DNA from: Acidobacteriota bacterium
GTDB lineage: Bacteria > Acidobacteriota > Thermoanaerobaculia > Thermoanaerobaculales > Thermoanaerobaculaceae
Length of the DNA: 64,000 nt
Reading direction: 5' to 3'
Assembly (NCBI GenBank): GCA_016213675.1
Contig: JACQZW010000034.1
Span: 143,403 to 207,402 of the forward strand
The position numbers and the translations under genes are program-made. Of this stretch, positions 28,041-43,449 are shown piece by piece (position 1 is the first letter of the stretch; the number at the start of each line of letters is the position of its first letter). A model generated the notes under the pieces. The model was given only the letters and a program-made list of their open reading frames with translations, had not been told where the DNA came from and made no database searches.

Positions 28041-29912
28041 CTACCTGCGGCTGCGGCCGGCGGGCGTGGGGAACAGGCTCGACGACGGGCGGCGCGGCTC
28101 CCACGGGGCGATGAAGCGGGAACGCGGGTCGCGATCCTCGGCGGCGGTCTGCCCGGCGTTCTCGGCGGGGGCCCAGGGCTCGACCTTCTTCATCCGGGCG
28201 TCCATGGCGTCGAGCTCGCGGTGCGCGAGGTCGCGGATGTCCTTGCGCAGGCCTTGCGCGGCGATCTCCTCGGTGAACTTGCGGCGCCCGTCGACCAGGT
28301 CGGCGACGTAGGCCTCGATCTGGGCGTCGGTGTAGAACCCCTTGGGGTCGTACGCAGAGAGGTCCGCGCCCTCGCACTTGACGACGTACTCGGTGCCGAG
28401 GCGTCCCTTCTGGTACTCGTTGGTCCCGCGCAGGTCGCCTCGCTGCAGCGCGGCCATCAGGTCGATCGGCACGCGCTGCGCCTTGCGGATCAGCTTCCTC
28501 TTGCCGGTCCCCTTGTCGACTTCGATGAGCTCACCCATGCCACCGGTGTTGTACTGGAAGAAGTGGACCTTGCCCGGGTAGCGGGCCACGAGGTCCATGA
28601 CGATGTCGTGGAACGCGTTCACCTTGCGGCCCTGCGCGCCGATGATGAAGTCGTCCATGCCGACGATGCGCACGCTCTCGCCGGCCTTCTCCGGGACGGT
28701 GGCGAACGAGTGGGTCGACTCGCCCCAGAGGTAGGCCATGACGCCCTGCTCCGGGGTGAGGCGTTGGGCGAACGGCATGATGGTGTTGCGCCTCGTGATG
28801 AAGGCAAAGGCGATGCCGTCGACCTCCTCGAGACTCGGGGTGTTGATCGAGTCGGCGCAGATCGACACCATCTTCCGCCCGCGTTTGACCTTGAGCTCGC
28901 GGCGATCGAGCACCCCGCGGCCGTTCTCGCCCAGCCGCTCGTCGGTGAAGTCGATCTCGCCCTTGCCGTTGATCATGACGTTCTCGAGAAGTGCCGTCTT
29001 GTGGGCCAGCGCCCGGTACATCGCCTCCTGCATCTGGAGCGTGACGTCGGTCTTCACGTAGTAGTTCTGCTCGGTACCGTACGACGAGCCGTCGCGGCGG
29101 AGCCAGACGATGTCGTCCTGGCTCACCCAGGTGCCCTCGCCGGCGTCGTTGTCGAGCCCGATCTGGTGGCAGCTCCACGTCGACTTGCCGGTCGCCGTCA
29201 AACCGAACATGAACACGGCATGGGTCTTGAGCTTGCCGGAACTGGCGTCGCGGGCGCGCACGAGCTTGGTGCCGGCGTGGAGCCCGAGCATGCCGCGCCC
29301 ATCCGCGCGGAACATGGCCTGGCGGAGGAACCCCTTCTTGCACTCCCCGGTGTAATCCGTGCCGAGGGCGATGTTGATGTCGTGCTCGGGAATCGTGAGG
29401 ATCTGCATCCGCAGTTGGTGTTCCTGCGGCACGTCGATCATGATGAACTCCGGACCCGGCCGGGACCGCTTGACCTCGCCCATGGTCATCGCCCATTCGT
29501 ACGCCAGGCGGTAGTTCTTCTTGTCGGCAACGCACACGTAGAGGTTGCAGATCGGGTTGAACTCGCGGTTGTCGCCCATCTGCCGGCGGACGTGGACGAA
29601 CGGCATGGTGCGCATGAGCTGCAGCACCTTGTGGAGCTGGTCGGGCGCCTTCTCGACGATGGCGAGCTGCTGCGGGTTCGGGGTCGGCAGGACGATCTCG
29701 GGTCCCGAGCCGAGGTAGACGGTCTTTGCGGCCTGGCGCGAGGAGATCGCCGAGAACCACAACGGCGAACCGTTGGCGGTCTTGACGGCCGTCTCCCAGG
29801 CCTTCTTCCTCAGCGTGCGCATCGACGGGTGCTCGATGTTGGGGCCGCCCAGGGCGGCGGGCAGGTTCTCGGCGAATCGCCGGTACACGTCAGGGTCGTA
29901 CGGGTGGGCCAT
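28041..29912 (-). CDS. Phosphoenolpyruvate carboxykinase (ATP)-family protein
   Basis: Kinase-1a P-loop FMFGLTATGKSTWS and an NTGG(M)G kinase-2-like region. Trimmed to M33 (MAHPYDPDVYRRF). It is longer than typical PckA (624 aa), so exact function is uncertain. Confidence 0.6.
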   Translation of the reverse strand: MAHPYDPDVYRRFAENLPAALGGPNIEHPSMRTLRKKAWETAVKTANGSPLWFSAISSRQAAKTVYLGSGPEIVLPTPNPQQLAIVEKAPDQLHKVLQLMRTMPFVHVRRQMGDNREFNPICNLYVCVADKKNYRLAYEWAMTMGEVKRSRPGPEFIMIDVPQEHQLRMQILTIPEHDINIALGTDYTGECKKGFLRQAMFRADGRGMLGLHAGTKLVRARDASSGKLKTHAVFMFGLTATGKSTWSCHQIGLDNDAGEGTWVSQDDIVWLRRDGSSYGTEQNYYVKTDVTLQMQEAMYRALAHKTALLENVMINGKGEIDFTDERLGENGRGVLDRRELKVKRGRKMVSICADSINTPSLEEVDGIAFAFITRRNTIMPFAQRLTPEQGVMAYLWGESTHSFATVPEKAGESVRIVGMDDFIIGAQGRKVNAFHDIVMDLVARYPGKVHFFQYNTGGMGELIEVDKGTGKRKLIRKAQRVPIDLMAALQRGDLRGTNEYQKGRLGTEYVVKCEGADLSAYDPKGFYTDAQIEAYVADLVDGRRKFTEEIAAQGLRKDIRDLAHRELDAMDARMKKVEPWAPAENAGQTAAEDRDPRSRFIAPWEPRRPSSSLFPTPAGRSRR

Positions 29913-30142
29913 CGCGTCCTCGTCGGGCGCCGCGAGCGCCCGTCGAGAGCATAGAGCTTGTACCTTGCCCGTGCAAGCGTGGCGACCTGCCTCGCGATCT
30001 GCGTCCACGGCAGAGGACGACTGCCCCCAAGTTCGGACTCGGCAGAGCCAGGTGGCTGCAGGGAAGGGGACGGGAGTCGGGCACGCCTCTTGCTCCCGCA
30101 GGATCCGCGCGGCGTCGAGCGTCGCCGGAACGGAGGCAGACA

Positions 30143-30588: not shown

Positions 30589-31146
30589 TCAATCGGATCC
30601 CACGAGGGGCTTCTCGCGGCGCAGCAGCACGCGCCGCGCCCAGTCGACGACCAGGAGCGTGCCGGTCGGCTGGAACTCGTCGACACCGAGCTGCCGGGTG
30701 AGGAGCCGGACGACCCCGCCGTGGGTGAACACGAGGTGACGTCCCGCGTCGAGTGTGGCGAGGAAGGCGTGGACGCGTGCGGCGAGCTCGTCCAGGGACT
30801 CGCCGCCGGGTGGGTGGAAGCCGTCCCAGCCGAGCAGGGATTCCTTGAGCGGTCGAGGCAGCGCGGTCCAGCGCAGCCCCTCGAGGTCGCCGAACGACAG
30901 CTCCCGCAGCCGCCGATCGGCCTGGGCGCGGCCCCAGGCGAGCCGGGCCGTCATGCGGGTACGAGCCAGATCGGAGCACCAGACGCCGGTGAAGTTCCCG
31001 CCCGCGAGAAGAGGGCGGAGCGCGCGAGCCTCGGTGCGGCCTCGCTCCGTCAGGCGTACGTCGGACCATCCCGCGAGGCGACCGTCACGGCTGCGGGTCG
31101 TCTCGCCGTGACGCACCAACCAGAGCTCGAGGAGCGGTTCGACCAT
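30589..31146 (-). CDS. Histidine phosphatase family protein (phosphoglycerate mutase / CobC-like)
   Basis: LVRHGET catalytic motif, a downstream SDLARTRMTA, and a C-terminal HGGVVR. Trimmed to M80 of the ORF-table entry. Confidence 0.75.
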   Translation of the reverse strand: MVEPLLELWLVRHGETTRSRDGRLAGWSDVRLTERGRTEARALRPLLAGGNFTGVWCSDLARTRMTARLAWGRAQADRRLRELSFGDLEGLRWTALPRPLKESLLGWDGFHPPGGESLDELAARVHAFLATLDAGRHLVFTHGGVVRLLTRQLGVDEFQPTGTLLVVDWARRVLLRREKPLVGSD

Positions 31147-31306
31147 CGGCGCCCAGTGTAGGCCCGCGACCCCGGCGCACGTCCCGGGCCGGGAGGAGGA
31201 CGGTCGGCCGTTAGCCGTGGGCTGTCGGCCCCCAGGGCGGGCTTGTACCTCCCAGGAACTTGTCGTAACGTGACTCCGTCCGCCCGGTCGGGCGGCGGAG
31301 GAAACC

Positions 31307-32695
31307 ATGGCGTTGTTCCCCTGGATCATCGGTGCGGTCACAGTCGTCCTGCTGCTGGCGTTCGTCGGCCTGTGGGCCTTCAACTACCGCAAGGTGGGTC
31401 CCAACCAGGTGCTGGTGATCTCCGGTCGCACCTCGACGGTGATCGAGCCCGATGGGCGAAAGCGGGAGGTCGGGTATCGGCTACAGGTGGGCGGCGGCAC
31501 CTTCGTCATGCCTCTCGTCGAGACCGTCGACACCCTTCCCCTCGAGGTGTTCTCCATCTCGGTCCGTTGCCCTGAGGTTCTCACCGCGCAGGGCGTGATG
31601 ATCGCCGCGGAGGCGTTCGGCCAGGTCAAGGCCGCCTCCGACGAGCGCCTCATCCACAGGGCGGTGGAGAACTTCCTGTCCCGAGGCTCCGCCGGGATCA
31701 CCGCGGTCGCCCAGGAGGTCCTCGAAGGCCACATGCGGGCGGCGCTCGGCCGGATGACGGTGGAGGAGATCTACACCGAGCGCGACCGCTTCGCCGACCA
31801 GGTCCGACAGGCCGCGACCGAGGACTTCTCGCGCCTGGGCCTCGAGCTTCTCGCGTTCTCGCTCAAGGACATTTCCGACGCGCAGGGCTACCTGTCCTCG
31901 CTCGGCGCGCGCCGGATCGCCGAGGTCAAGCGCGACGCCGCACTCGCCCAGGCCGAGGCGGACCGCGACTCCGCGATTCACGCTGCCGAGTACCGCAAGG
32001 AGGGTGACATCGCCCGTCTCGCCGCCGAGGCGGAGCTGGCCAAGGCGACGCGTGACTTCGAGATGCAGCGGGCCGAGTTCCAGGCGTCGGTCAACGTCAA
32101 GCGGGCCCAGGCCGACGTCGCCTACGACCTCGAGAAGGCCACGCTCTCCGAGGCGCTCAAGCGGCAGGAGGGCCAGGTCCGACTCACCGAGAAGGAGCTG
32201 GCGGCCAGGATCGAAGAGCAGGAAATCGCGCGCCGCGAGAAGGAGCTGGAGGCCACGGTCAAGCGGCCGGCCGAGGCGATGAACTACCAAGCGCGACTCG
32301 AGGCCGAATCCGACGCCTACCGCAAGGAGCTCGACGCCAAGGGCAAGGCGGCGGGAATCAAGCTGATCGGCGCGTCCGAGGCGGAAGCCGCCGCGGCGCG
32401 CGGCAAGGCCGACGCCGAGGCCATGCGTCTCAAGGCCGCGGCGTGGAAGGAGTACACCGACGCGGCGCTGGTCGAGATGGTCGTCAAGCAGCTTCCGGAG
32501 CTGGCCCGCGCTGTGTCCGAACCGCTCTCCAAGGTCGAGAAGATCATCATGGTCGGCGACGACAAGGGTGTCCCCAAGCTGACCGGCCAGGTCGCCTCGG
32601 TGGTCGCGCAGCTCCCCACCATCGTCGAGTCGCTGACCGGACTGAAGCTGGATGACCTTCTGCGGCGTGGCAAGAAGGAGAAGGAGAATGCCTAG
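31307..32695 (+). CDS. Flotillin / SPFH (band 7) domain protein
   Basis: N-terminal TM segment, SPFH domain and a long Ala/Glu-rich coiled-coil C-terminus (EAELAKA, AEAESDAYRKELDAKGKAAG), as in FloT/YuaG-type flotillins. Confidence 0.85.
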   Translation: MALFPWIIGAVTVVLLLAFVGLWAFNYRKVGPNQVLVISGRTSTVIEPDGRKREVGYRLQVGGGTFVMPLVETVDTLPLEVFSISVRCPEVLTAQGVMIAAEAFGQVKAASDERLIHRAVENFLSRGSAGITAVAQEVLEGHMRAALGRMTVEEIYTERDRFADQVRQAATEDFSRLGLELLAFSLKDISDAQGYLSSLGARRIAEVKRDAALAQAEADRDSAIHAAEYRKEGDIARLAAEAELAKATRDFEMQRAEFQASVNVKRAQADVAYDLEKATLSEALKRQEGQVRLTEKELAARIEEQEIARREKELEATVKRPAEAMNYQARLEAESDAYRKELDAKGKAAGIKLIGASEAEAAAARGKADAEAMRLKAAAWKEYTDAALVEMVVKQLPELARAVSEPLSKVEKIIMVGDDKGVPKLTGQVASVVAQLPTIVESLTGLKLDDLLRRGKKEKENA

Positions 32696-33245
32696 AGGCG
32701 GGCACTCCGCCCACCGCGAGTGCGTTCGCCGTCTCGTGATCGGGTTGCACCTAGCCGTTTTCGCGATGCCTGCCTTGATCGGCCAGGCAGTGGCAGGCGA
32801 ATCTCCTGATGCCTTCCGGCGTCTCGTGAGCCGGGTCATGCGCCAGCCCCAGATGAAGAAGGACACGGCCAGGGATTCCATCAACTACTCCACCAGAACG
32901 CCAGTGTTCGCGGTGCCGACCGACCCGGCGAAGCCCATCAACCCGAACGACGGGTCGACCTTCATGACGGTCTTCGCGGAGGTCACCCTCACCGACAGGG
33001 AGCCGTTGGCACTCACCCCAGAACGACTGGGTGCCGAGGACGTCCTGCTGGTGGTGCTGCGCACCGAGGGAACCGGCCACATTTTCTGGAAGAACCGTGA
33101 CGCAGGCCTCAAGGGTCCGGGCGAGGCGGCGTCGAAGGAACTGGTCCCCCTGTTCGGCGAAGAGCCGCAGGCCAAGTACAAGGACGTCGTGAACCGCATC
33201 AACGCCGCGCTCGATGCCGAGGCGGTGGAAGGCCAGGCGAAGTGA
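32688..33245 (+). CDS. Hypothetical exported protein translationally coupled to the flotillin gene
   Basis: The start overlaps the flotillin stop (ATGCCTAG), with an AAGGAGAAGGAG tract upstream. Hydrophobic signal-like segment (LVIGLHLAVFAMPALIGQAVAG). No recognised domain. Confidence 0.5.
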   Translation: MPRGGHSAHRECVRRLVIGLHLAVFAMPALIGQAVAGESPDAFRRLVSRVMRQPQMKKDTARDSINYSTRTPVFAVPTDPAKPINPNDGSTFMTVFAEVTLTDREPLALTPERLGAEDVLLVVLRTEGTGHIFWKNRDAGLKGPGEAASKELVPLFGEEPQAKYKDVVNRINAALDAEAVEGQAK

Positions 33246-33281: not shown

Positions 33282-35603
33282 ATGCTCTCCGAACGCTCGA
33301 ACCGCATCGCACTCTCCCCGACACTCCGTATCTCCGCACGGGCACTCGCCATGAAGGCGCAGGGGATCGACGTCGTCGACTTCTCCGCCGGTGAGCCGGA
33401 CTTCGCCACGCCCGACGCGGTGAAGCGGGCCGCCAAGGAGGCGCTCGACGCCAACTTCACCAAGTACGTCGCCAACGACGGCATCCCGGAGTTGAAGAAA
33501 GCGATCTGCGAGAAGCTCGAGCGCGAGAACGGCGTGCGGTTCTCGCCGGACGAGGTCATCGTCTCGTGCGGTGCCAAGAACTCGCTCTTCAACGTCGCGA
33601 TGTCGCTCTACGAGCCCGGCGACGACGTGCTCATCCCGTCGCCCTACTGGGTGTCCTATCCCGATCAGGTGAAGCTGTGCGGCGCCAACCCGGTCTTCGT
33701 GCCGACGCGCGAGGAGGACGGCTTCCGCCTCCGAGCCCGCGAGCTCGCGGCGGCGATCACCCCGAACACCAAGGCGCTCATCCTCAACTACCCCGGCAAC
33801 CCGACCGGAGCCTTCTACTCCCGCGAGGAGCTCGAGGAAATCGCGGAAGTGTGCGTCCGCGAGCAGATCTGGGTGATCGCCGACGAGATCTACGAGAAGC
33901 TGCTCTACGACGGGCAGCGTTTCACCTCGATCGCCTCACTGAACGAGCGGATCAAGAAGCTCACCGTCGTGATCAACGGCTTCTCCAAGGCCTTCGCGAT
34001 GACCGGCTGGAGGCTCGGGTACGCCGCCGGTCCACGCGAGATCGTCGCATCCTGCTCGAAGATCCAGTCGCACAACACCTCGAACGCCACGTCGTTCGTG
34101 CAGAAGGCCGGCGTGACGGCCCTGCGCGACTGCGGGATGGAGGTGGAGCGGATGCGGCAGGAGTTCGAGCGCCGGCGCAACTACGTGGTCTACCGGCTGC
34201 GTGCGCTTCCGAGGGTGTCGTGCAACTCCCCGGCCGGGGCGTTCTACGTCATGCCCAACGTCGCCGCGTACCTCGACAAGGAGTACCAGGGAGCCCCGAT
34301 CCGCAACACCTACGGCCTGTCGTACTACCTGCTCAAGGAAGCGCACGTCGCGCTGGTCCCGGGCGAGGCGTTCGGCACCGACGAGCACCTGCGGATCTCG
34401 TTCGCGACCTCGATGGAACGGCTCGAGGAGGGGACACGTCGCATCGAGAAGGCGCTCGCCCGCCTCGAGGAGCCGCGCCGGGTGCGGCCGCGCGCCCTCG
34501 CCAACGTGCTCACCAAGGTCGTCGACTACGCCGAGACCCGCTCGATCGCCGGGCTCACGACGAGGAACGAGCTGCTCGCCGAGGTAGAGTCACACCTGCC
34601 CGCCGACTCCTACTTCGAGTGGAACGCGGCAATCGCCGGCATCGTCGTGCAACTGCGCACCTCGTCGCCGCACCTGGCCGACTTCTACCAGGAAAACTTC
34701 TACCCTGCGCCGCTCGAGAGCGACCTCGAACCCCACGCGGTCATCTACGCCGTCAAGGACGTTCCGGGTCGTGAGGCGTCCGGTGCCGTCTCACTGGAGA
34801 CCAACACCGCCTTCGTCTTCAACACGGCGTACTACGGGCAGGTCCGTTCGTTGGCGCTGCAACTCGCGGCCGAGGCCGCCTCGCGCTCGTCGGGCGCGTT
34901 GCTCGCTCACTGCGCGGCGCTCGACGTGGACGGCAGCGGCGTGCTGATCTGGGGCGGCCCCGGTTCGGGCCGCACCGGGGTCCTCGGCGCCGCGCTCGAG
35001 CGCGAGGGCGTCAAGCTCGTCGCCAGCGACTGCGTGCTGGTCCGCCATGGGGCCGAGCCGGTCGCCGACCTCGTCGAGCGGAAGCTCTACCTCAAGGCGA
35101 AGTGGGCCGGGAAGCTCCCCGAGATCGCCAAGCTCCTCGATCGCGCCAAGCTGGAGAACATCGTCACGGATCGGGCGGCCTGCCACATCGACCACCCCGA
35201 CGACGTGTGCCCTCTCGACCGGGGCGCCGCGGCATGCCTCGAGGCGTCGACGAAGGGCCGGATCGTCGTCGATCCCTACTGGCTCGGCGGCGGCACGCGC
35301 CACGCGCGGCGCACCGCACCGAAACTGTGCATCCTGCTGGCCCGCGATCCGGTTCTGCCGCTCCTCAAGGAGGTCGAGCCGCGCGAGGCCGCCCGGCTGG
35401 TCGCGAGTGGCCAGCTCCCGGGTGCCGCGGGCAAGGCGCTCCCGTTCCTCAACCCGCACCTCGCAGGGCTGGACGCAGCGCGCAGTGACCAGATGCAGGG
35501 CCAGCACGAACGGCTCTTCGCGGCCACGAAGGTGGTGATCGTCAACACCGCAGTGGGCTCTCCAGCGTCGCTGGCGGCGAGGATCACCGAGGTCGTGAAG
35601 TAG
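33282..35603 (+). CDS. Class I/II (aspartate-type) PLP-dependent aminotransferase fused to a C-terminal HPr-kinase-like P-loop domain
   Basis: Residues 1-390 match aspartate aminotransferases (NYPGNPTG, the PLP-lysine motif GFSKAFAMTGWRLGY). Residues ~520-700 match the HprK C-terminal fold (LLAHCAALDVDGSGVLIWGGPGSGRTGVLGAALEREGVKLVASDCVLV). One 773-aa uninterrupted frame. Confidence 0.75.
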   Translation: MLSERSNRIALSPTLRISARALAMKAQGIDVVDFSAGEPDFATPDAVKRAAKEALDANFTKYVANDGIPELKKAICEKLERENGVRFSPDEVIVSCGAKNSLFNVAMSLYEPGDDVLIPSPYWVSYPDQVKLCGANPVFVPTREEDGFRLRARELAAAITPNTKALILNYPGNPTGAFYSREELEEIAEVCVREQIWVIADEIYEKLLYDGQRFTSIASLNERIKKLTVVINGFSKAFAMTGWRLGYAAGPREIVASCSKIQSHNTSNATSFVQKAGVTALRDCGMEVERMRQEFERRRNYVVYRLRALPRVSCNSPAGAFYVMPNVAAYLDKEYQGAPIRNTYGLSYYLLKEAHVALVPGEAFGTDEHLRISFATSMERLEEGTRRIEKALARLEEPRRVRPRALANVLTKVVDYAETRSIAGLTTRNELLAEVESHLPADSYFEWNAAIAGIVVQLRTSSPHLADFYQENFYPAPLESDLEPHAVIYAVKDVPGREASGAVSLETNTAFVFNTAYYGQVRSLALQLAAEAASRSSGALLAHCAALDVDGSGVLIWGGPGSGRTGVLGAALEREGVKLVASDCVLVRHGAEPVADLVERKLYLKAKWAGKLPEIAKLLDRAKLENIVTDRAACHIDHPDDVCPLDRGAAACLEASTKGRIVVDPYWLGGGTRHARRTAPKLCILLARDPVLPLLKEVEPREAARLVASGQLPGAAGKALPFLNPHLAGLDAARSDQMQGQHERLFAATKVVIVNTAVGSPASLAARITEVVK

Positions 35604-41949: not shown

Positions 41950-42063
41950 AGCGCGCCGCGCGAGACGCTCCACCTGTCCCATGTTCCCGGGTGAGCGGGC
42001 GGGGCATTGTGATACCTTTCCCGAGTGAAGCACTTCCGTCGCGCGTCCGGCGAGGAGGCCTCG

Positions 42064-43449
42064 ATGAACCCCAACGTCAAGAAGCTCGCGATCCTGGCCG
42101 GAGGCGGCCCGGCGCCGGGAATCAACAGCGTGATCGGTGCGGCGGCGATCCGAGCCGCCCTGTCCGGCTCCGAGGTGATCGGCATCCTCGACGGCTTCAA
42201 GTGGATCATGGAAGGCAACGTCGATCACATCATGCCCCTGACCATCGAGGGCGTGTCGCGCATCCACTTCCGCGGCGGCTCCCACATCGGCATCTCCCGC
42301 GCCAACCCGACCAAGCACGACCAGCACTTGGAGAACAGCGTCATCTCCCTGCTTCGCCTCAACGTCGACCGGCTGATCACGATCGGCGGCGACGACACCG
42401 CCTTCTCCGCCTACAAGCTCAACGAGCGCAGCCAGGGCCGCATCCGCGTCGTCCACGTGCCGAAGACGATCGACAACGACCTCGAGCTCCCGGCCGGCGG
42501 CAACACCTTCGGATTCCAGACCGCCCGCCACATCGGGGTCGGCATCGTCCGGGACCTCATGGTCGACGCCAAGGCGACGTCGCGCTGGTACCTCGTGGTC
42601 ACGATGGGTCGCAAGGTCGGGCACCTCGCCCTCGGGATCGGCAAGGCGGCGGGCGCGGCGCTCACGCTCATCCCCGAGGAGTTCGGCGAGCGCGTCCCGC
42701 TCAAGACCATCGTCGACACCCTGCTCGGGGCGATGATCAAGCGGATGAGCTACGGCATGCCGCACGGCGTGGCCGTTCTCGCCGAGGGGCTCGTGGAGGC
42801 CGTCGACCCGGCGGAGCTGGAGGAGGTGGGCGGGGCCGAGCGGGACGCCCACGGCAACCTCCGGATGGCCGAGGTGAACCTCGGCGAAATCCTCAAGGCC
42901 AAGGTCCTCGAGCAGCTCAAGCGCTACCACATCAACACCACCGTGGTCGCCAAGAACATCGGCTACGAGCTGCGCTGCGCCGATCCGATCCCCCTCGACA
43001 TGGAGTACACCCGCGACCTCGGCTACTACGCCGCGCAGTACCTCGCCGAGGGGGGCAGCGGCGTGGTGATCGCCGTCGAGGGCGACCACTTCAAGGCGCT
43101 GCCGTTCTCGGAGAACATCGATCCCAAGACCGGCAAGACCAAGCTCCGCATGGTGGACGTCAACTCCGAGCGCTACCGGGTCGCCCGCCGCTACATGATC
43201 CGGCTCAACCGCGAGGACTTCGAGGACATGCACCAGGTGGCCAAGCTCGCCGCGACGGCAGGGATCTCGCTGGCCCAGTTCCGCCGCGAGTTCGCGTACC
43301 TCGTGGAGCACGAGCCGGCGCCGGTGAAGCTGATCACCGGGACCCTCCCGGGGCACGAGGTGGCGTCGGACCTTCTTCCGGAGGCCGAGCCGCTCGTCCA
43401 GCCTGCCAGCGGTCAGCGGCGAGCCAGGCGACGGCTGACCGCCGGCTGA
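42064..43449 (+). CDS. pfk: 6-phosphofructokinase (long PFK-A family; possibly PPi-dependent)
   Basis: LAILAGGGPAPGINSVI, GGDDT and PKTIDNDL motifs. Trimmed to M14. 462 aa suggests the long/PPi-PFK group. Confidence 0.85.
   Translation: MNPNVKKLAILAGGGPAPGINSVIGAAAIRAALSGSEVIGILDGFKWIMEGNVDHIMPLTIEGVSRIHFRGGSHIGISRANPTKHDQHLENSVISLLRLNVDRLITIGGDDTAFSAYKLNERSQGRIRVVHVPKTIDNDLELPAGGNTFGFQTARHIGVGIVRDLMVDAKATSRWYLVVTMGRKVGHLALGIGKAAGAALTLIPEEFGERVPLKTIVDTLLGAMIKRMSYGMPHGVAVLAEGLVEAVDPAELEEVGGAERDAHGNLRMAEVNLGEILKAKVLEQLKRYHINTTVVAKNIGYELRCADPIPLDMEYTRDLGYYAAQYLAEGGSGVVIAVEGDHFKALPFSENIDPKTGKTKLRMVDVNSERYRVARRYMIRLNREDFEDMHQVAKLAATAGISLAQFRREFAYLVEHEPAPVKLITGTLPGHEVASDLLPEAEPLVQPASGQRRARRRLTAG

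What the first reader, a model, noticed from the sequence alone, without database searches (positions are those of the whole stretch)
33282..35603. Single-ORF fusion of an aspartate-type PLP aminotransferase with an HPr kinase/phosphorylase-like P-loop domain
The N-terminal 390 aa form a complete class I aminotransferase (PLP-lysine motif SKAFAMTGWRLGY). The frame continues without a stop through a ~130-aa linker into a domain matching the HprK C-terminal fold. Its P-loop carries Arg in place of the usual Lys (GGPGSGRTGV), and LVASDCVLV lines up with the HprK DD motif. HprK-like domains normally act in phosphorylation-based regulation (HPr, or the HprK-related kinases near RiPP clusters). Covalent coupling to a transaminase suggests a novel regulated or bifunctional amino-acid-metabolism enzyme.
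Basis: partly seen in the sequence, partly recalled or inferred. Interest (0 to 1): 0.6.

Follow-up and report, generated by a model that had tools for sequence, protein, structure and literature searches.

The report
Aspartate aminotransferase fused to mini-PEPCK module
This is a real gene, conserved across many bacterial phyla, that joins an aspartate aminotransferase (which makes oxaloacetate) to a trimmed, rewired copy of PEP carboxykinase (which uses oxaloacetate); databases label it only as an aminotransferase, and it usually sits next to a flotillin gene and often near a normal PEP carboxykinase gene.

The parts
33282..35603 (+). Whole fusion ORF, 773 aa plus stop
   Evidence: ORF list; uniform GC3 of 0.85-0.97 in frame; single-frame tblastn HSPs covering q1 to ~770 in about 70 of 80 species loci; 788 homologues at E <= 1e-150, the top 120 being 769-781 aa
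33282..34460 (+). Class Ib aspartate aminotransferase domain (aa 1-393); PLP-lysine K236 in SKAFAMTGWRLGY (33984-34022); G-A-K99 (33570-33578); R371 (within 34386-34406)
   Evidence: Pfam PF00155 E = 4.9e-79; best NCBIfam matches are aspartate aminotransferases at 400-407 bits; best PDB match is Sinorhizobium AatB 6f35 at E = 4e-107, followed by other class Ib Asp/prephenate aminotransferases; K99, K236, R244 and R371 are invariant in 67 sequences
34461..34535 (+). Short inter-domain linker (aa ~394-418, RLEEPRRVRPRALANVLTKVVDYAE)
   Evidence: The only internal stretch with pLDDT < 50 is aa 401-403; the secondary structure of the module starts at aa 419
34536..35600 (+). Compact PEPCK-like module (aa 419-773): reduced N-subdomain (aa ~419-513) plus P-loop subdomain
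34821..34850 (+). NTAYYGQVRS (aa 514-523), aligned to E. coli PckA 204-213 (GTWYGGEMKK): Y518, Q520 and R522 invariant; K213 equivalent is Ser
   Evidence: hhalign mapping; column counts in 67 sequences
34953..34979 (+). Walker-A-like loop GGPGSGRTG (aa 558-566) with Arg564 in place of the P-loop Lys (E. coli K254)
   Evidence: Strand-loop-helix in both models; R in 50, K in 16 and M in 1 of 67 sequences; members from most other phyla keep GxxGxGK[ST]
35016..35030 (+). LVASD (aa 579-583), aligned to PEPCK LIGDD / HprK LVADD: D583 conserved (D 61, E 6); first Asp replaced (S/N/T/D variable)
35076..35096 (+). ERKLYLK (aa 599-605), aligned to PEPCK EGGCYAK: E599, R600 and K601 invariant, Y603 in 66/67; K605 (= K288) in 52/67. 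R600-K601 replace Gly-Gly and are specific to this family
35154..35159 (+). E625-N626, aligned to PEPCK LLENV (E311-N312), invariant
35181..35237 (+). Cys-containing insertion CHIDHPDDVCPLDRGAAAC (aa 634-652), absent from E. coli PEPCK; C634, C643 and C652 conserved in 64-66 of 67
   Evidence: Gap in the hhalign template; counts
35256..35282 (+). GRIVVDPYW (aa 659-667): R660, aligned to PEPCK R333, is invariant; D664, P665 and W667 are invariant and family-specific
31307..32695 (+). Flotillin (SPFH/Band-7 plus Flot) gene, conserved upstream partner of the fusion
   Evidence: Pfam Band_7 E = 5e-28 and Flot; NCBIfam FloT-like 324 bits; same strand directly upstream in 65 of 67 informative loci, median gap 105 nt
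28041..30008 (-). Divergent but catalytically intact ATP-type PEPCK gene (655 aa), a frequently conserved neighbour
   Evidence: Pfam PEPCK_ATP E = 5.9e-26; NF006821 281 bits; Y207, K212, K213, H232, K254, D268, D269, K288 and R333 equivalents invariant in 29/29; present in the flank of 32 of 51 informative loci in varying orientation

Best explanation
Shown: the gene encodes a two-module protein. Module 1 is a complete class Ib aspartate aminotransferase, which interconverts aspartate + 2-oxoglutarate with oxaloacetate + glutamate. Module 2, joined by a linker of about 25 residues, is a trimmed member of the PEP carboxykinase fold family (both subdomains), not an HprK domain. Inferred: the protein works at the aspartate-oxaloacetate-PEP node together with the canonical PEPCK that is often encoded beside it. 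The PEPCK-derived module keeps the oxaloacetate/PEP side of the ancestral active site under very strong constraint. Its phosphoryl-transfer and metal residues are rewired: in this lineage the P-loop Lys is Arg, the Mn-ligand Lys is Ser, and the Arg65 loop and the C-terminal ~85 residues (about E. coli 456-540) are missing. I therefore think the module most likely binds the aminotransferase's own product or substrate (oxaloacetate, or PEP, or a phosphate-bearing ligand through the Arg/Lys P-loop). It would then either hand oxaloacetate on or set the activity of the aminotransferase. It would not carry out the standard ATP-dependent PEPCK reaction or phosphorylate a protein. The invariable flotillin partner suggests the assembly is organised at the membrane; that step is speculative.
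For: Fusion real and ancient. Aminotransferase half intact with PLP-Lys, the Lys of G-A-K and the carboxylate Arg invariant, and closest to characterised aspartate aminotransferases. PEPCK fold over the whole C-terminal half; a sequence bridge through standalone relatives that hit the PEPCK subfamily model NF006821 at E 1e-6 to 1e-18. Substrate-side residues invariant in 67/67 across at least 8 phyla (R660 = R333, E625/N626 = E311/N312, E599 = E282, R522 = K212), Y603 = Y286 in 66/67, plus the family-specific invariants Y518, Q520, R588, R600, K601, D664, P665, W667 and R677. The P-loop and metal positions are less conserved or replaced. Metabolic logic: oxaloacetate is the aminotransferase product and the PEPCK substrate (established biochemistry). 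Gene neighbourhood: an intact PEPCK in 32/51 informative loci in several orientations, and flotillin in 65/67. Modules with a non-Lys P-loop are the ones preferentially next to a real PEPCK (30/41 against 2/9, Fisher p = 0.007; distant lineages only p = 0.04).
Against: No biochemical data exist. Thirteen or more invariant polar residues, including the new R600-K601 pair, fit a re-engineered catalytic site as well as a binding site. Members from most other phyla keep a canonical Walker-A Lys and some keep the DD motif, so the ancestral module may be a true enzyme and the Arg form could still be active. The AF2 full-length pTM of 0.53 gives no defined interface between the halves, so there is no structural support for channelling or allostery. 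PEPCK is absent from the flank in 19 of 51 informative loci. The K/R-PEPCK correlation is not corrected for phylogeny. I cannot explain the role of flotillin.
Confidence: 0.45

Rival explanations
1. True bifunctional enzyme. The PEPCK-like module is catalytically active as a minimal PEPCK or an oxaloacetate decarboxylase, with R600/K601 and Arg/Lys564 replacing the lost Lys residues. One polypeptide would then convert aspartate to PEP (or pyruvate), or run the reverse reaction for aspartate synthesis.
For: Consecutive reactions fused in one polypeptide. PEPCK fold and collinear motifs. Invariant R660, E599, Y518, R522 and E625/N626, with Y603 in 66/67 and D583, K605 and H543 mostly conserved. 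New invariant basic pair R600-K601 at the position of the PEPCK Gly-Gly. Canonical GxxGxGK[ST], with or without DD, in members from Zixibacteria, Planctomycetota and Eisenbacteria, which mostly lack an adjacent PEPCK. A relative carries an intein right after the P-loop region (P0123); in my experience inteins usually sit in functional sites of active enzymes.
Against: In the window's lineage the Walker-A Lys is Arg and the Mn-ligand Lys213 equivalent is Ser. D268 is variable, and H232 is Arg in 11 members. No counterpart of the Arg65 loop or of E. coli residues 456-540 was found. The P-loop is less conserved than the rest of the pocket. An intact PEPCK is encoded next door in most Arg-type loci, which would make a second PEPCK redundant.
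Confidence: 0.25
2. Adaptor or pseudo-enzyme. The module is a non-catalytic PEPCK look-alike whose job is to dock the dimeric aminotransferase onto the neighbouring PEPCK and/or the flotillin scaffold, forming a membrane-associated metabolon.
Against: A pure docking role does not explain 100% conservation of a dozen charged residues that map to the ancestral active-site cleft. No interaction evidence could be computed. The fusion also occurs where no PEPCK is nearby.
Confidence: 0.17
3. One reading: an HprK/P-like protein kinase/phosphorylase domain that regulates the aminotransferase or another protein by serine phosphorylation.
Confidence: 0.06
4. Artefact: a frameshift or mis-assembly joined two separate genes.
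For: Some metagenomic homologues are fragmented or frameshifted.
Against: Continuous codon bias. One frame in about 70 of 80 independent species genomes, and all exceptions are contig ends or local frameshifts. 788 homologues, the top 120 all 769-781 aa. No split version was found.
Confidence: 0.01

Closest known systems
ATP-dependent phosphoenolpyruvate carboxykinase (PckA; PDB 1ii2 T. cruzi, 1aq2 E. coli, 2pc9 T. thermophilus)
   Different: About 355-383 aa instead of 520-540 aa. Lacks the first ~95 residues (Arg65 loop) and the last ~85. K254 is Arg, K213 is Ser, K212 is Arg and D268 is variable. G283-G284 are replaced by an invariant Arg-Lys. Has a three-Cys insertion. Does not reach any PEPCK Pfam or NCBIfam threshold. 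Always fused to an aminotransferase.
HPr kinase/phosphorylase C-terminal domain (PDB 1ko7, 1jb1)
   Same: [quoted passage not shown] Similar H-x-(5-6)-D-x-x-G-x-G-V-L-I-x-G-x-x-G-x-G-[KR] and LVA-x-D stretch.
Class Ib aspartate (and prephenate) aminotransferases (Sinorhizobium AatB 6f35, Arabidopsis PAT 5wmh, T. thermophilus AspAT 1bjw)
   Same: Full-length alignment, E 4e-107 to 1e-89. The PLP-Lys, the Lys of the G-A-K motif and the carboxylate-binding Arg are conserved.
   Different: These enzymes are standalone proteins of about 385-410 aa. The window protein carries a 380-aa C-terminal extension. Scores lie below the NCBIfam equivalog cut-offs (407 against 550), so exact substrate specificity is not established.
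Standalone 'mini-PEPCK/HprK-like' hypothetical proteins (for example P0040, P0042, P0057, P0068; some called 'ATP-dependent PEPCK' by IMG) and HprK-related kinases A/B and ScmC
   Same: Detected by the module profile at E 1e-72 to 1e-36. Similar size (350-460 aa). Weak hits to both PEPCK and HprK-type models.
   Different: Not fused to an aminotransferase. Unrelated gene contexts. Uncharacterised, so they do not inform function.

Membership tests
Class I/II aminotransferase, subgroup Ib aspartate aminotransferase | Pfam PF00155 match above the gathering score, over the full domain | tested here: met
   266.6 bits against a cut-off of 19.7; aa 30-388 cover profile 2-361/361
Class I/II aminotransferase, subgroup Ib aspartate aminotransferase | PLP-binding Lys in the S-K motif, and the Arg binding the substrate alpha-carboxylate | tested here: met
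   S235-K236 and R371 are invariant in 67 sequences and align with SKAYAMTGWR and RISYA of AatB 6f35
Class I/II aminotransferase, subgroup Ib aspartate aminotransferase | Equivalog-level score to a curated aspartate aminotransferase model | tested here: not met
   Best NF041091 407 bits against a cut-off of 550; NF004769 400 against 617. The family is clear; exact specificity is unproven
Class I/II aminotransferase, subgroup Ib aspartate aminotransferase | Transamination of aspartate/oxaloacetate in vitro | not testable with these tools
   Needs an enzyme assay
HPr kinase/phosphorylase (HprK/P) | Pfam Hpr_kinase_C or TIGR00679 above the curated cut-off | tested here: not met
   16.8-18.1 bits against 33.3; 19.9 bits against 240; about 50 residues only
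HPr kinase/phosphorylase (HprK/P) | Walker A GxSGxGKS with catalytic Lys, and the LVADD pair | tested here: not met
   GGPGSGRTG with Arg564; LVASD with only the second Asp
HPr kinase/phosphorylase (HprK/P) | Domain architecture: HprK N-terminal domain plus a ~170-aa C-terminal kinase domain | tested here: not met
   The region upstream of the P-loop domain superposes on the PEPCK N-subdomain. HprK chains align over only 128-147 residues
HprK-related kinases A/B (RiPP-associated, TIGR04352/TIGR04355) | Score above cut-off and a RiPP/PqqD-type gene context | tested here: not met
   20.9 and 17.5 bits against a cut-off of 200. The neighbours are flotillin, PEPCK, a histidine phosphatase and a solute-binding protein
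PEP carboxykinase (ATP) family | PEPCK two-subdomain fold | tested here: met
PEP carboxykinase (ATP) family | Pfam PF01293 or NCBIfam PEPCK model above cut-off | tested here: not met
   No PEPCK model was reported for the module even at E <= 1. The homology is seen only by profile-profile comparison (93.5%) and through intermediates
PEP carboxykinase (ATP) family | Oxaloacetate/PEP-site residues (E. coli Y207, K212, R333; R65) | tested here: inconclusive
   The R333 equivalent is invariant, K212 is an invariant Arg, and Y207 is F/Y with an adjacent invariant Tyr. No counterpart of the R65 loop was found
PEP carboxykinase (ATP) family | Phosphoryl-transfer and metal residues (K254, T255, K213, H232, D268, D269, K288) | tested here: not met
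   K254 is Arg (R 50, K 16, M 1), K213 is Ser and D268 is variable. T255, H232, D269 and K288 are mostly kept
PEP carboxykinase (ATP) family | Oxaloacetate + ATP to PEP + CO2 + ADP activity | not testable with these tools
   Needs an enzyme assay

The most novel reading that the evidence does not exclude
The module is a previously unrecognised minimal catalytic member of the PEPCK superfamily, with an Arg/Lys P-loop, an invariant Arg-Lys pair and a Cys cluster. Fused to aspartate aminotransferase and organised by a flotillin, it would form a membrane-associated single-polypeptide route between aspartate and PEP (or pyruvate) in many uncultured anaerobic phyla. That would be a new enzyme chemistry or donor specificity and a rare case of a bacterial flotillin tied to a defined metabolic enzyme.
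Probability: 0.2. Interest if true: 0.75.

Novelty: new variant of a known kind. Interest (0 to 1): 0.55.

Why it matters
Hundreds of proteins in at least eight mostly uncultured phyla (Acidobacteriota/Thermoanaerobaculia, Aminicenantes, Zixibacteria, Eisenbacteria, Latescibacterota, TA06, Planctomycetota, Ignavibacteria, Myxococcales) are annotated simply as "aminotransferase", while half of each protein is an unrecognised PEPCK-superfamily module. Metabolic reconstructions of these lineages therefore miss whatever happens at the aspartate-oxaloacetate-PEP branch point, which controls gluconeogenesis from amino acids and anaplerosis. The family also sits between PEPCK and HprK in sequence space, so it is informative for how this unusual P-loop lineage diversified. 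It also offers a natural Lys/Arg/Met series at the Walker-A position. The near-obligate pairing with a flotillin gene gives a concrete, testable candidate client for a bacterial flotillin.

Tried and rejected
(1) Frameshift or assembly artefact: rejected. (2) Exact-sequence look-up of the window protein in assemblies found nothing. (3) The word-indexed search with the C-terminal half alone returned only 29 proteins and suggested a rare family. This was an index limitation: the genome scan (130 species), the exhaustive profile search (553 representatives) and the full-length query (788) show it is common. (4) Direct BLASTP of the module against the neighbouring PEPCK was not significant. (5) Split versions (aminotransferase and module as adjacent genes): none found. 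P0031 is a contig-edge fragment, and P0040, P0042, P0057 and P0061 lie in unrelated contexts. (6) My guess that QLR(T/S)xSPH is the counterpart of the PEPCK TGRSPKD Arg65 loop was not supported: local hhalign of the N-subdomain gave E 0.74 and maps to E. coli 96-219. The pTM of 0.53 means no conclusion on the orientation of the two halves. (9) The promoter and terminator scan was uninformative. (10) Literature searches for this fusion, for a PEPCK-like aminotransferase and for Thermoanaerobaculia PEPCK found no description. (11) No tRNA genes in the window.
Full report
OBSERVATION. The ORF exists exactly as described: 33282..35603 on the + strand, ATG start, 773 aa. A GAGG-type Shine-Dalgarno sequence lies about 10 nt upstream. 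The quoted motifs are at aa 235-247 (SKAFAMTGWRLGY), 558-566 (GGPGSGRTG) and 579-583 (LVASD).

IS THE FUSION REAL? Yes. A scan of one genome per species found relatives of the C-terminal half in 130 species, and 80 loci were kept. In about 70 of those 80, a single tblastn HSP covers query residues 1 to about 770 in one reading frame, with open frames of 775-820 aa. The remainder are cut by contig ends or carry a local frameshift. A full-length protein search returned 788 proteins at E <= 1e-150; the best 120 are 769-781 aa, and one is 98% identical. The hosts are Acidobacteriota (mostly Thermoanaerobaculia, 62-83% identity, so the window very likely comes from that group), Aminicenantes, Eisenbacteria, Zixibacteria, Latescibacterota, TA06, Planctomycetota, Ignavibacteria and a Myxococcales MAG (38-59%). 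I found no case of the two halves as separate adjacent genes.

N-TERMINAL HALF. Pfam Aminotran_1_2 covers aa 30-388 (E = 4.9e-79). The best curated models are aspartate aminotransferases (407 and 400 bits), although these are below the equivalog cut-offs. The closest solved structures are class Ib aspartate aminotransferases, several of them known as dual aspartate/prephenate aminotransferases: Sinorhizobium AatB 6f35 (E = 4e-107), AatA 6f77, Phormidium 1j32, Arabidopsis PAT 5wmh and Thermus 1bjw. K236 (PLP), K99 of the G-A-K motif, R244 and R371 are invariant in 67 orthologues. From memory, the Lys of the G-A-K motif is the side-chain-carboxylate binder of subgroup Ib. This half looks like a fully functional aspartate-type transaminase. 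Its exact substrate range is not proven.

C-TERMINAL HALF. Sequence models give only weak, local hits to HprK-type families: Hpr_kinase_C 16.8-18.1 bits against a cut-off of 33.3, HprK_rel_A 20.9 against 200, and hpr-ser 19.9 against 240. All are confined to about 50 residues around the P-loop. A family profile against PDB sequences again finds HprK best (1ko7, E = 4.6e-4, positions 152-203), with T. cruzi PEPCK at E about 1 over a longer stretch. Structure settles the question.

The full-length model (pLDDT 87.6) shows ordered structure from aa 419 onward. The only internal segment with pLDDT < 50 is aa 401-403. The "130-aa linker" is therefore the reduced N-subdomain of a PEPCK-like module, and the true linker is about 25 residues. 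[quoted passage not shown]

ACTIVE-SITE ANATOMY. This uses the mapping, with counts from 67 sequences and E. coli numbering checked; the residue roles are from my knowledge of E. coli PckA structures. Positions strictly or nearly strictly conserved:
- R333 maps to R660 (67/67).
- E311-N312 map to E625-N626 (67/67).
- E282 maps to E599 (67/67).
- Y286 maps to Y603 (66/67).
- K212 maps to R522 (67/67 Arg).
- Y518 and Q520 next to the Y207 position are invariant (67/67).
- D269 maps to D583 (D 61, E 6).

Positions partly conserved:
- H232 maps to H543 (H 52, R 11).
- K288 maps to K605 (K 52).
- T255 maps to T/S565 (57).
- The P-loop glycines are kept in 54-63 sequences.

Positions changed:
- The Walker-A K254 maps to position 564, which is R in 50, K in 16 and M in 1.
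- The Mn ligand K213 is Ser/Thr in 63.
- D268 is variable.

Family-specific features:
- R600-K601 are invariant where PEPCK has Gly-Gly.
- R588, D664, P665, W667 and R677 are invariant.
- Three cysteines (C634, C643, C652; 64-66 of 67) lie in an insertion absent from E. coli PEPCK.

The N-subdomain alone does not align significantly to PEPCK (E = 0.74). It maps, if anywhere, to E. coli 96-219. I could therefore demonstrate no counterpart of the first ~95 residues, which carry the oxaloacetate-binding Arg65 loop, and the last ~85 residues of PckA are absent. Members from most other phyla keep a canonical GxxGxGK[ST], and some keep DD. Arg is fixed in the window's Acidobacteriota clade and also occurs in Latescibacterota, TA06, Aminicenantes and some Zixibacteria and Ignavibacteria members.

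GENOMIC CONTEXT. A flotillin gene (31307-32695; Band_7 plus Flot; FloT-like) lies directly upstream on the same strand in 65 of 67 loci that have enough flank, with a median gap of 105 nt. A 655-aa PEPCK gene (28041-30008, minus strand) is found in the flank of 32 of 51 informative loci across several phyla. It is mostly divergent from the flotillin gene but sometimes on the same strand or downstream. That PEPCK is remote from characterised enzymes: E about 1e-6 to solved structures, and 281 bits to NF006821, below the cut-off. It nevertheless has every catalytic residue checked, invariant in 29 of 29. The Arg65 position was offset by one column in the MAFFT alignment; a conserved Arg sits next to it. 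Downstream genes (a family-5 solute-binding protein and others) are not conserved. Modules with Arg or Met at the Walker-A position are more often next to a PEPCK gene (30 of 41) than Lys-type modules (2 of 9): Fisher p = 0.007, or p = 0.04 using only the distant lineages. This is not corrected for phylogeny and is only suggestive.

INTERPRETATION. Shown: a genuine, ancient, widespread fusion of an intact aspartate-type aminotransferase with a trimmed PEPCK-superfamily module, genetically tied to flotillin and frequently to a canonical PEPCK. Inferred: because aspartate aminotransferase produces and consumes oxaloacetate, which is the PEPCK substrate, the protein acts at the Asp-oxaloacetate-PEP node.

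The conservation pattern has an invariant substrate side, a relaxed or substituted P-loop and metal side, a missing Arg65 loop and a missing C-terminal region. Together with a real PEPCK next door in most Arg-type loci, this makes me favour a ligand-binding, hand-over or regulatory role for the module (confidence 0.45) over a second full catalytic activity (0.25), a purely structural adaptor (0.17) or an HprK-like protein kinase (0.06). The many invariant charged residues, including the new Arg-Lys pair, and the Lys-type members keep the catalytic alternative alive. AF2 gives no defined inter-module interface (pTM 0.53), so channelling and allostery remain hypotheses. The flotillin link is unexplained.

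NOVELTY. Sources name these proteins only "aspartate/methionine/tyrosine aminotransferase" or "pyridoxal phosphate-dependent aminotransferase". The only precomputed Pfam domains are PF00155 (plus PF01041 or PF01053). No Pfam or NCBIfam model covers the module. Full-text searches found no description of this architecture. Both halves belong to known superfamilies, so this is a new variant (a new domain architecture and a new PEPCK-superfamily subfamily) rather than a categorically new system.

Noticed in passing
window 28041-30008 (-): A 655-aa PEPCK-ATP-like gene that is very remote from characterised PEPCKs (E about 1e-6 to solved structures; NF006821 281 bits, below the 369 cut-off) but has all catalytic residues intact. 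It may represent a poorly characterised PEPCK subfamily in its own right.
   Followed up: partly
window 31307-32695 (+): A flotillin (SPFH/Band-7 plus Flot) gene that is almost obligately adjacent to the fusion across phyla (65 of 67 informative loci). No functional rationale is known for a flotillin-aminotransferase operon.
   Followed up: partly
window 32652-33245 (+): A 197-aa ORF (GC3 0.82) with no Pfam or NCBIfam match fills a ~590-nt gap between the flotillin gene and the fusion. In other loci that gap is about 105 nt, and only L023 has a weak (39%) relative, so it looks like a lineage-specific insertion or a spurious ORF.
   Followed up: partly
window 35181-35237 (aa 634-652 of the fusion): Three cysteines (C634, C643, C652) conserved in 64-66 of 67 orthologues, plus H674 (61/67), lie in an insertion absent from E. 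coli PEPCK. This could be a metal-binding or redox-sensitive site. I could not check their spatial clustering.
   Followed up: no
P0061 (loci L085-L087, gene at L085 6001-8700): An 899-aa protein in an archaeal-looking context has an N-terminal partial mini-module (aa 11-218) followed by a complete PEPCK (aa 363-893, NF006821 416 bits). This is a different way of coupling the mini-module to PEPCK.
   Followed up: partly
P0123 (754 aa, from the exhaustive search): A distant relative of the module is interrupted by an intein (Pfam Intein_splicing, aa 216-393) just downstream of the P-loop-containing stretch.
   Followed up: no
fusion aa 564 across loci L001-L080: The Walker-A residue state correlates with gene context. 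Arg/Met-type modules usually have a canonical PEPCK gene nearby (30 of 41) and Lys-type modules usually do not (2 of 9); Fisher p = 0.007, not phylogenetically corrected.
   Followed up: partly
window 30589-31383 (-) and 42025-43449 (+): Other genes possibly linked to central carbon metabolism lie nearby: a histidine-phosphatase-superfamily protein (branch 1; best model match alpha-ribazole phosphatase, weaker phosphoglycerate-mutase matches), conserved only within Thermoanaerobaculia loci, and a phosphofructokinase.
   Followed up: no
P0011, P0015, P0022, P0024-P0029 (ENA metagenome proteins): Many ENA-derived homologues show obvious internal frameshifts (Arg/Pro/Ala-rich out-of-frame stretches), probably from error-prone assemblies. 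They could mislead anyone who judges the fusion from protein databases alone.
   Followed up: yes
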